The notes below the pieces were generated by a model. The model saw nothing but the letters and a program-made list of their open reading frames with translations, did no database searches and was not told the DNA's origin. The position numbers were made by a program, and so were the translations under genes. 64,000 nt of DNA. Origin: Eledone cirrhosa (Eukaryota). The stretch spans positions 19,034,001 through 19,098,000 of the forward strand of contig OZ024760.1 of assembly GCA_964016885.1 (NCBI GenBank). The letters are read 5' to 3'. Positions 29,480 to 30,535 of this stretch are shown piece by piece (position 1 is the stretch's first letter; each line of letters begins with the position of its first letter).

Positions 29480-30535
29480 GAAGACACAAAAATACCATAA
29501 ACGGAAACACCTCGACAGATATAAAAATCAAAAATAGAAGACGAACTAATACATTTTTCATCCCCCCTTTCAATCTAAACCTCTCTACCAACCTACCTAA
29601 GGCTTTCTTCTCAATCCTGGATAAAAACTTCCCATCTGGCCACAAGTACCATAGTCTTATAAATAAAAACACCATTAAAATCTCCTACTCTACCACGCCT
29701 AATATAGCATACCACATAGCTAGTAGCAATAAAAGAAAGATTAATACTTACTTTCAACAAACTAAAACACAGCAGGGGTTAAACTTTCAAAACAACGTAA
29801 TAATTACAAACACTAATGAAATCAATAGCATTAGGAACGACAACCTTCATAGCCATAATGCAATACCTAGCAACCAGACTTCTACACAACATAATAACCG
29901 ACAGGTTAACATCCAAAATAAATATAACTGTAGATCTAATAGAACCTGCCCTTTAGGTAAAAACTGCTTAATCAAGGACATCATCTACTCATGCACGGTC
30001 AGAACTAGCAACTCTTCTGAAACCTATATAGGCTCTACTTCGAACTGCTTCAAAACGAAATACAACTCACATCTCCATTCTTTCAAAAACACAGTCTAGC
30101 CAACTCCACTTCACTATCTAGCTACATACACTATCTGAAAACTAGAAATAGATCATATACACTTCAATTGGAAGTGATAGGTAAGACGGCATCGTACAAA
30201 CCACCTAATAAATTCTATAACCTCTGTCTACTAGAGACCCATACTATAATCTTTTCGAACCTTAGCCTCCTTAATAAAAAATCGGAAGTGTTTGCGTCGT
30301 GCCCGCATCGCTTCCGACACTCCTTCCGAAGCTTTAAACCTAATATATAACAATGTCAGACTTGAACTCATCACCGCTTCTAACACCGCACCTCAAGGGC
30401 TTGCCTTCCACCACTACACCACACTCACTGATCCACCCAAGACTAGAACTGTTTCACTCTTTAGAAATCATCAGGAATTCCTGATGATTTCTAAAGAATG
30501 AAACAGTTCTAGTCCTGTAGAATCTCATCTATATT
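29480..30535 (+). mobile_element. Penelope-like element 3' part (post-RT region, GIY-YIG endonuclease, 3' UTR), pseudogenised
   Basis: FFIPPFN..STNLPKAF..LDKNFP..HKYHSLINKNTIKISYS; CPLGKNCLIKDIIYSC...YIGST...FKTKYNSH; after a stop, YNLCLLE...LLNKKSEVFASCPHR. Confidence 0.88.
30441..30514. ncRNA. Head-to-head inverted hammerhead cores in the Penelope 3' region
   Basis: Palindrome centred on GAATTC (30475-30480); CTGATGA-TTTCTAAAGAAT-GAAA-CAG-TT-CTAGTC on the plus strand and a near copy on the minus; the 5' strand of stem I is missing. Confidence 0.65.

What the first reader, a model, noticed from the sequence alone, without database searches (positions are those of the whole stretch)
30441..30514. 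Penelope 3' hammerhead core closely resembles the retrozyme core
Seen: CCTGATGATTTCTAAAGAATGAAAC downstream of the GIY-YIG ORF versus CCTGATGATTTCTAACAAGAATGAAAC in the 310-bp unit, a 2-nt difference in loop II. A third relative lies at 41311. Inference: the retrozyme's ribozyme derives from, or shares ancestry with, a local Penelope-like family that could be its autonomous partner. The match is short and partly forced by the conserved core.
Basis: partly seen in the sequence, partly recalled or inferred. Interest (0 to 1): 0.78.

Follow-up and report, generated by a model that had tools for sequence, protein, structure and literature searches.

The report
Retrozymes carry Penelope insertion footprint
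The ribozyme match is real but too short and too common to show kinship, and this ribozyme belongs to a different jumping-gene family than the gene next to it; the stronger clue is that the short ribozyme repeats sit in the genome with the two-armed, two-ended shape that Penelope-like jumping genes leave, so they were likely pasted in by such an enzyme.

Summary
The sequences are as reported, but the label is wrong. 30438-30540 is a hairpin with two hammerhead cores. It is a terminal scrap of an abundant Hydra-clade Penelope-like family (A; intact 713/714-aa ORFs exist), joined to a fragment of another family (B, 33% aa identity). 0 of 18 other B copies carry this hairpin; B has its own ribozyme about 1.36 kb downstream. 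The 310-bp retrozyme matches A only in the core (shuffle p 0.40-0.98 elsewhere). The same stem II occurs in A's sister families and in phage-like metagenome ribozymes (one core 24/24 identical), so ancestry is unproven (about 0.3). New evidence: two-armed insertions of this retrozyme have one short and one long 3' end in (TA)n in 21 of 25 cases, a second retrozyme in 17 of 19, family A in 17 of 21; none has the same end twice. This is the Penelope 'tail' footprint, so a Penelope-type enzyme likely inserts them (0.85). Which family is open: tail length is about 30-40 nt here and about 70 nt in A. The Penelope-retrozyme link is already proposed in print. The scan noted a tandem-plus-inverted hammerhead insertion in another genome.

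The parts
29344..30350 (+). 5'-truncated, frameshifted fragment of a Hydra-type Penelope-like ORF (family B): end of RT, CxCx5C linker, GIY-YIG endonuclease
   Evidence: 33% identical over 196 aa to the intact family A protein; relatives 78-93% identical and decayed; linker motif intact in sister copies
30351..30437 (+). First ~90 nt of the family B 3' UTR, cut off; in intact copies it runs on about 1.36 kb to B's own hammerhead
30438..30477 (-). Left (antisense) arm of a family A1 terminal insertion; core at 30451-30474; outer part and cleavage site lost
30478..30540 (+). Right arm: family A1 hammerhead, core 30481-30504, 4-bp stem I, 4-bp stem III, predicted cut after 30519; arm ends at the family's short end (+21) in (TA)n
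30541..30569 (.). (TA)n target microsatellite
11556..13861 (+). 310-bp retrozyme array, 7.4 units, 34% GC; type I hammerhead in each unit (predicted cut after 11862 and every 310 nt); 3' end at the short site in (TA)n; 5' side lost in an N gap
41253..41374 (.). Hairpin scrap of a sister family of A (loop CTTC); core duplicated by 3 nt and cleavage triplet altered, probably inactive

Best explanation
The hairpin at 30438-30540 is a terminal scrap of a Hydra-clade Penelope-like family (A) joined to a broken copy of another family (B), and the 310-bp retrozyme, which shares only the ribozyme core with A, was likely inserted across the genome by a Penelope-type enzyme. Shown: the family assignment, the lack of homology beyond the core, and the insertion shape (two arms diverging from a centre, one ending at a short and one at a long fixed site, both in (TA)n). 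Inferred: the endonuclease cuts both strands of (TA)n; each 3' end primes reverse transcription at one of two fixed internal sites on a circular or multimeric retrozyme RNA; the two cDNAs grow inward over many units and are joined at the centre. Inferred: the core likeness comes mostly from catalytic constraint, a U-U-closed stem II common in Hydra-clade ribozymes, and an A-rich loop. Inferred: the B-A join arose by a one-off deletion. The partner family is most likely Hydra-clade (about 0.65); that it is A is about 0.35.
For: Family A: the core's true upstream and downstream flanks lead into an RT ORF. UTR-ribozyme-tail-ORF order is seen in 6 of 30 loci. 17 locus records (15 distinct places) have 713/714-aa ORFs; 14 of the 15 intact ORFs of that length among L321-L337 have the ribozyme 175 nt before the ATG. 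The 714-aa subfamily has the window's loop. Not B. No homology beyond the core: blastn gives only a 28-nt hit; shuffles p=0.87, 0.40 (A), 0.71, 0.30 (B), 0.98, 0.76. Convergence: 11 of 27 metagenome hits fold as clear type I or III hammerheads; L283 is 24/24 identical to the A core and lies among phage-family genes. Loop TAACAA is shared by three retrozyme families with different stems. Footprint: 21 of 25 complete two-armed 310-bp insertions, 17 of 19 for the 468-bp retrozyme, 17 of 21 for family A; none has the same end twice. Both arms of an array share array-specific variants. Inverted copies and a one-sided tail are Penelope hallmarks (PMC8557442); the tail maps to two RT start sites (PMC11167929).
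Against: The footprint is a genomic inference; no RNA or enzyme was observed. Tail length of the 310-bp element (about 30-40 nt) matches no Hydra-type family I measured (A about 70 nt; others about 60-170 nt from few copies), so the partner may be a family I did not sample. 4 of 25 insertions have one end at neither site. The exact stem II is absent from 26 published Hydra rows and nearly private to the A group here, which argues for real kinship of the cores. One of six shuffle tests gave p=0.03 (antisense of the A tail). The B-A join could not be checked against reads.
Confidence: 0.8

Rival explanations
1. The retrozyme took its hammerhead from the family A group (shared ancestry of the core), later gaining a 6-nt loop II and a long stem I; the rest of the unit has diverged or has another origin.
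For: 24 of 26 core bases match. Exact TTTC/GAAT stem in 0 of 26 published Hydra rows and, in this short form, only in the A group among about a dozen local types. A is very abundant and has young intact copies. 21 of 57 Xenopus-type cases aside, the preprint reports 24 of 57 retrozyme families homologous to 22 transposons, 21 of them Penelope-like.
Against: No homology beyond the core. Identical or near-identical cores in phage-like contigs. U-U plus U-A at the stem base in 10 of 26 Hydra rows leaves only two informative pairs. No family has the retrozyme's loop with an A-type stem III: 97 scattered matches genome-wide. The youngest A subfamily has loop TAAT, less alike.
Confidence: 0.3
2. Family A is the autonomous partner of the 310-bp retrozyme, whatever the origin of the core.
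For: Same (TA)n target and two-armed shape; intact ORFs up to 99.7% identical, as young as the retrozyme units (mean 98.3%); TCTATAT at the short end in both.
Against: Tail about 70 nt in A against about 30-40 nt here; the 468-bp retrozyme, with an unlike stem II, has the 70-nt tail. Tail sequences do not align above chance. Many other families share the target.
Confidence: 0.35
3. The hairpin is the genuine 3' terminal repeat of the GIY-YIG element beside it, as the title says.
For: It lies 90 nt behind the stop codon.
Against: 0 of 18 other copies have it; B has its own ribozyme in line in 7 of 8 copies; the first core met is antisense; the hairpin's flanks lead to a protein only 33% identical.
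Confidence: 0.03
4. The 310-bp arrays are ordinary satellites spread by DNA recombination; inverted arms come from fold-back repair.
For: Units are near-identical tandem repeats; some arrays mix variants (window, L047).
Against: Outer ends fall at two fixed unit positions, one of each per insertion, in (TA)n, at hundreds of dispersed places; recombination predicts no such rule.
Confidence: 0.05
5. The B-A join is an assembly error between two repeats.
For: It is unique among listed matches, and the window has N gaps and long microsatellites.
Against: The join is sharp, in non-repetitive sequence, with at most 2 nt unexplained; truncated and nested scraps are common in these loci.
Confidence: 0.08

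Closest known systems
Hydra clade of Penelope-like elements (Craig et al. 2021, PMC8557442)
   Same: Single ORF with RT and C-terminal GIY-YIG, RWK-type motif (RWR), DKT, CxCx5C linker, no CCHH, hammerhead in the terminal repeat, (TA)n target, inverted truncated copies, one-sided tail.
   Different: Family A spans about 5 kb because its 3' UTR holds about 2.5 kb of (TA/TG)n; its tail is about 70 nt, not 30-40; very high copy number with many intact ORFs.
Non-LTR retrozymes of animals (Cervera and de la Pena 2020, PMC7229834)
   Same: Tandem 310-bp, low-GC, non-coding units, each with a type I hammerhead with tiny palindromic stem III; U-U at the base of stem II as in axolotl HHR_Amex2; self-paired monomer.
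   Different: Here arrays are two inverted arms with two fixed 3' ends in (TA)n, which the passages and discussion I read do not describe; RNA not shown here.
Retrozymes as non-autonomous Penelope derivatives (Li, Clavereau, Pollet, bioRxiv 10.64898/2026.07.22.740005)
   Same: Same overall claim: retrozymes depend on Penelope-like elements.
   Different: Their evidence is co-occurrence and terminal-repeat homology in vertebrates; here homology is absent and the evidence is the insertion footprint in an invertebrate-type Hydra system.
Poseidon element of Anolis, in vitro (Frangieh et al. 2024, PMC11167929)
   Same: Two internal RT start sites, both target strands cut and extended, AT-rich target; the tail lies between the two sites.
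   Different: Poseidon clade, cis RNA only; no retrozyme template tested in the parts I read.

Membership tests
3' terminal-repeat hammerhead of the adjacent GIY-YIG element (family B) | Present at the same place in other copies of that element | tested here: not met
   0 of 18 copies; B's own ribozyme lies about 1.36 kb further on
Hydra-clade Penelope-like element (family A) | Single ORF, RT plus C-terminal GIY-YIG | tested here: met
   713/714-aa ORFs
Hydra-clade Penelope-like element (family A) | RWK, DKT, CxCx5C motifs; no CCHH | tested here: met
   RWR variant, DKT, CNCx5C read from the proteins against the definition; Pfam gave no hit on partial pieces
Hydra-clade Penelope-like element (family A) | Hammerhead in both terminal repeats; (TA)n target | tested here: met
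   Core at -175 from the ATG and again 4.3-5.2 kb downstream; ends in (TA)n
Hydra-clade Penelope-like element (family A) | Generally shorter than 3 kb | tested here: not met
   About 5 kb, owing to a microsatellite 3' UTR; the paper calls this a tendency
Hydra-clade Penelope-like element (family A) | Placement in the clade on an RT tree | not tested
   No tree built; likeness to the published Hydra proteins judged by eye only
Non-LTR retrozyme (310-bp unit) | Tandem 150-400-bp low-GC units without ORF | tested here: met
Non-LTR retrozyme (310-bp unit) | Type I hammerhead in every unit | tested here: met
   Core, 6-bp stem I, palindromic stem III; Rfam HH9 aligns end to end but at 19.2 bits, under the cut-off of 52
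Non-LTR retrozyme (310-bp unit) | Self-cleavage and circular RNA in vivo | not testable with these tools
   No RNA run was listed
Non-autonomous derivative of family A | Homology to the terminal repeat beyond the ribozyme core | tested here: not met
Penelope-type insertion | Inverted 5'-truncated arm | tested here: met
   11 of 14 retrozyme loci listed first on contig 1 show minus-then-plus cores
Penelope-type insertion | Tail on one end only (two RT start sites) | tested here: met
   21 of 25; 17 of 19 for the 468-bp family
Penelope-type insertion | Target-site duplication | tested here: inconclusive
   Hidden by (TA)n on both sides

The most novel reading that the evidence does not exclude
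Several unrelated retrozyme families in one animal genome parasitise Hydra-clade Penelope enzymes by offering two internal start sites on a circular or multimeric RNA, so that both strands of a cut (TA)n prime rolling reverse transcription and give inverted two-armed arrays; the 310-bp family also captured its ribozyme core from the family A group, which is its partner.
Probability: 0.25. Interest if true: 0.75.

Novelty: new member of a known kind. Interest (0 to 1): 0.5.

Why it matters
Which enzyme inserts animal retrozymes has been open since they were described; Penelope-like elements were a guess from shared ribozymes and co-occurrence, recently backed by homology in frogs. Here the insertions themselves carry the Penelope-specific tail, in two retrozyme families, and give nucleotide-level predictions of where reverse transcription starts. 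Intact, young family A ORFs and a published in vitro assay make the question directly testable. The result also warns that ribozyme-core likeness is a poor guide to the partner: the retrozyme with A's stem lacks A's tail length, and the one with A's tail length lacks A's stem.

Tried and rejected
Rfam over the whole window gave no hammerhead among the 150 listed of 279 matches; a narrow rescan gave HH9 below cut-off. Pfam found nothing meaningful for five protein pieces. An apparent likeness between unit positions 119-145 and the A tail (TCTATATT...GCTAT) was tested and rejected (p=0.87, 0.98, 0.76). The 468-bp retrozyme against A tails gave p=0.05 and 0.08 with inconsistent alignments: not counted. 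A search for a family with the retrozyme's loop and another stem III found only scattered variants (97 matches). Tail lengths of other hammerhead families, from few copies each, found none of 30-40 nt. Sequencing runs: no RNA holder listed; three runs of unknown kind each hold one 340-nt contig, which a tandem array or a circle would both give: no evidence either way. The join was not checked against reads. The first count of family A two-armed insertions returned nothing through a script error and was redone. 16 of 27 metagenome hits did not fold clearly (3 weakly) and were not counted. The scan's notes held nothing for this genome.

Full report
Observation. Seven belong to a 310-bp array at 11556-13861 (7.4 units, 99% matches; 34% GC). 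The stretch 30438-30517 is a hairpin holding two cores head to head; 41253-41374 is a similar hairpin. The window lies in a 3.0-Gb animal genome, G000.

The ribozyme is not the neighbour's. A query over 30330-30540 splits at base 109 into two families; only the window's place spans both (1 of 72 listed matches, 40 of 1,520 candidates scored). The left part is the 3' UTR of the GIY-YIG element (family B). In 8 other copies and 10 more that keep the region (one further copy has it deleted) the UTR goes on unchanged, 0 of 18 with the hairpin. About 1.36 kb later B has its own hammerhead with a long stem II, in line in 7 of 8 copies. B is decayed: 150 scored relatives are 78-93% identical to the window piece. 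The right part belongs to family A. A pattern that excludes the window's centre finds 3,295 more cores, whose usual flanks run into an RT ORF. UTR, ribozyme, tail and ORF stand in direct order in 6 of 30 loci. Intact 713/714-aa ORFs exist, with RWR, DKT, CxCx5C and GIY-YIG and no CCHH, which fits the Hydra clade as defined in PMC8557442 (section 11 read); no tree was built. The ribozyme sits 175 nt before the ATG and again 4.3-5.2 kb downstream. A young subfamily (up to 99.7% identical) has loop TAAT, an older one the window's TAAA. A and B proteins are 33% identical. The window therefore shows a join of a cut B copy and a cut A scrap; a deletion is inferred, and I could not check the join against reads.

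How much does the core match mean? Outside the core the retrozyme does not align to A or B above dinucleotide shuffles: p=0.87 and 0.40 for A, 0.71 and 0.30 for B, 0.03 and 0.30 for two antisense tests, 0.98 and 0.76 for longer tails; blastn finds only 28 nt. The stem TTTC/GAAT is shared by 3,505 further cores with other 4-nt loops, which have A-like flanks, including the 41311 type, so it marks a group and not one family. No family combines the retrozyme's loop with another stem III (97 scattered matches). In metagenomes the pattern hit 27 loci; 4 fold as type I and 7 as type III hammerheads, 3 weakly, 13 not. L283 is identical to the A core over 24 of 24 bases and is flanked by phage-family genes, so the stem can arise independently. 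In the hammerhead table of PMC8557442 (supplement part 2 read) 14 of 26 Hydra rows have U-U at the stem base, 10 of them followed by U-A; 0 of 26 have the full stem. Loop TAACAA recurs in two other retrozyme families here with unlike stems; that it serves the loop I-loop II contact is inference from known hammerheads. The retrozyme's ribozyme is of the canonical kind, with a 6-bp stem I prolonged by a 16-bp helix and a palindromic stem III, whereas A's has a 4-bp stem I and a 4-bp stem III. Against convergence: among about a dozen local hammerhead types only the A group has this short stem. I put shared ancestry of the cores at 0.3.

What does link retrozyme and Penelope. The retrozyme is dispersed: 10,287 core matches with a 5-9-nt loop, mostly this family among the 100 listed. 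11 of the first 14 retrozyme loci on contig 1 show minus-strand then plus-strand cores. Of 34 loci examined, 25 distinct two-armed insertions had both outer ends in view: 21 have one arm ending at unit position 126-139 and the other at 160-172, 4 have one end elsewhere, none has the same end twice; 8 loci show one arm and 2 pairs were cut. The ends abut (TA)n, which blurs the short end by about 15 nt. If arms chose ends independently, 21 unlike pairs in a row would have probability 0.5^21. A second retrozyme (468-bp unit, 7,924 motif matches) follows the same rule in 17 of 19 complete insertions, at 229-235 and 303-305. Family A does so in 17 of 21 two-armed loci, at +8 to +25 and +82 to +98 after the predicted cut; in 3 the second arm had no end in view and 1 was off-site. 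An inverted truncated copy and a 30-40-bp tail at one end are described as Penelope hallmarks (PMC8557442 passages), and the tail was mapped to two internal RT start sites, with both target strands cut and extended (PMC11167929, parts 1-2 of 4 read). Units of both arms share array-specific variants, while the window's array and L047 mix variants; this fits one template per insertion, sometimes multimeric. The monomer folds better than 100 of 100 shuffles (z -3.7).

Mechanism, inferred. A Penelope-type protein cuts (TA)n on both strands; each end primes at one of two fixed sites on a circular or multimeric retrozyme RNA; the cDNAs run inward over several units and are joined at the centre (gap or overlap -16 to +18 nt in all but one pair). 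I give 0.85 to a Penelope-type enzyme, 0.65 to the Hydra clade because of the (TA)n target and abundance, 0.35 to family A. The tail of the 310-bp element (about 30-40 nt) does not match A's (about 70 nt), while the 468-bp element's does; whether protein or RNA sets this length is unknown. No family with a 30-40-nt tail appeared in a thin sample.

What is known. PMC4209133 (parts 1-2 of 4 read) reports hammerheads in Penelope terminal repeats and pairs on opposite strands. PMC7229834 (passages and discussion) proposes Penelope-like elements as the partner of retrozymes and notes U-U in an axolotl ribozyme. The preprint 10.64898/2026.07.22.740005 (parts 1-3 of 5 read) claims the link from co-occurrence and homology in frogs. 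I found no report of the inverted two-ended footprint on retrozymes in five searches, but the library lacks most subscription papers, and the supplements of PMC7229834 and of the preprint, which I did not see, may bear on this and on how common the stem is.

Verdict. The stated resemblance is real, mislabelled and weak as evidence. The elements are new members of known kinds. The insertion footprint is the part worth following. Interest 0.5.

Noticed in passing
L338:6641-7374, L259, L175, L371-L390: A second retrozyme, 468-bp unit, at least 7,924 motif copies, with the same two-armed, short-plus-long shape and a 70-nt tail.
   Followed up: yes
L333, L256, L067, L142, L202: A third retrozyme-like family related to the 468-bp one (p=0.003), with U-U at stem II and the same loop; inverted and tandem copies seen.
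   Followed up: partly
L321, L327, L329, L331, L335: Family A carries about 2.5 kb of (TA/TG)n inside its 3' UTR, so it would copy its own target-like microsatellite each time it moves.
   Followed up: partly
window 17280-17700, 56085, 46583 (-): Hairpin and single scraps of another Hydra-type family with a different hammerhead; L128 links it to a DKT-bearing ORF.
   Followed up: partly
window 42706: Another hammerhead type with copies in L003, L015, L074, L200; parent element not found.
   Followed up: no
window 27701-27906: Inverted pair with a tRNA-like match (Rfam tRNA 40.2 bits at 27731-27802, minus strand), perhaps a SINE scrap with the same fold-back shape.
   Followed up: no
window 63045-63178: Long near-perfect hairpin; similar arms seen in L067.
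   Followed up: no
L266, L286, L287, L289; L267, L269, L270, L274, L276, L283, L288: Type I and type III hammerheads between genes of phage-like metagenome contigs, all with a U-U-closed stem II; L286/L287 are two on one contig 705 nt apart.
   Followed up: partly
L338:1762-5958: A 1,398-aa open frame beginning in a family A ORF, about twice the usual length; not examined.
   Followed up: no
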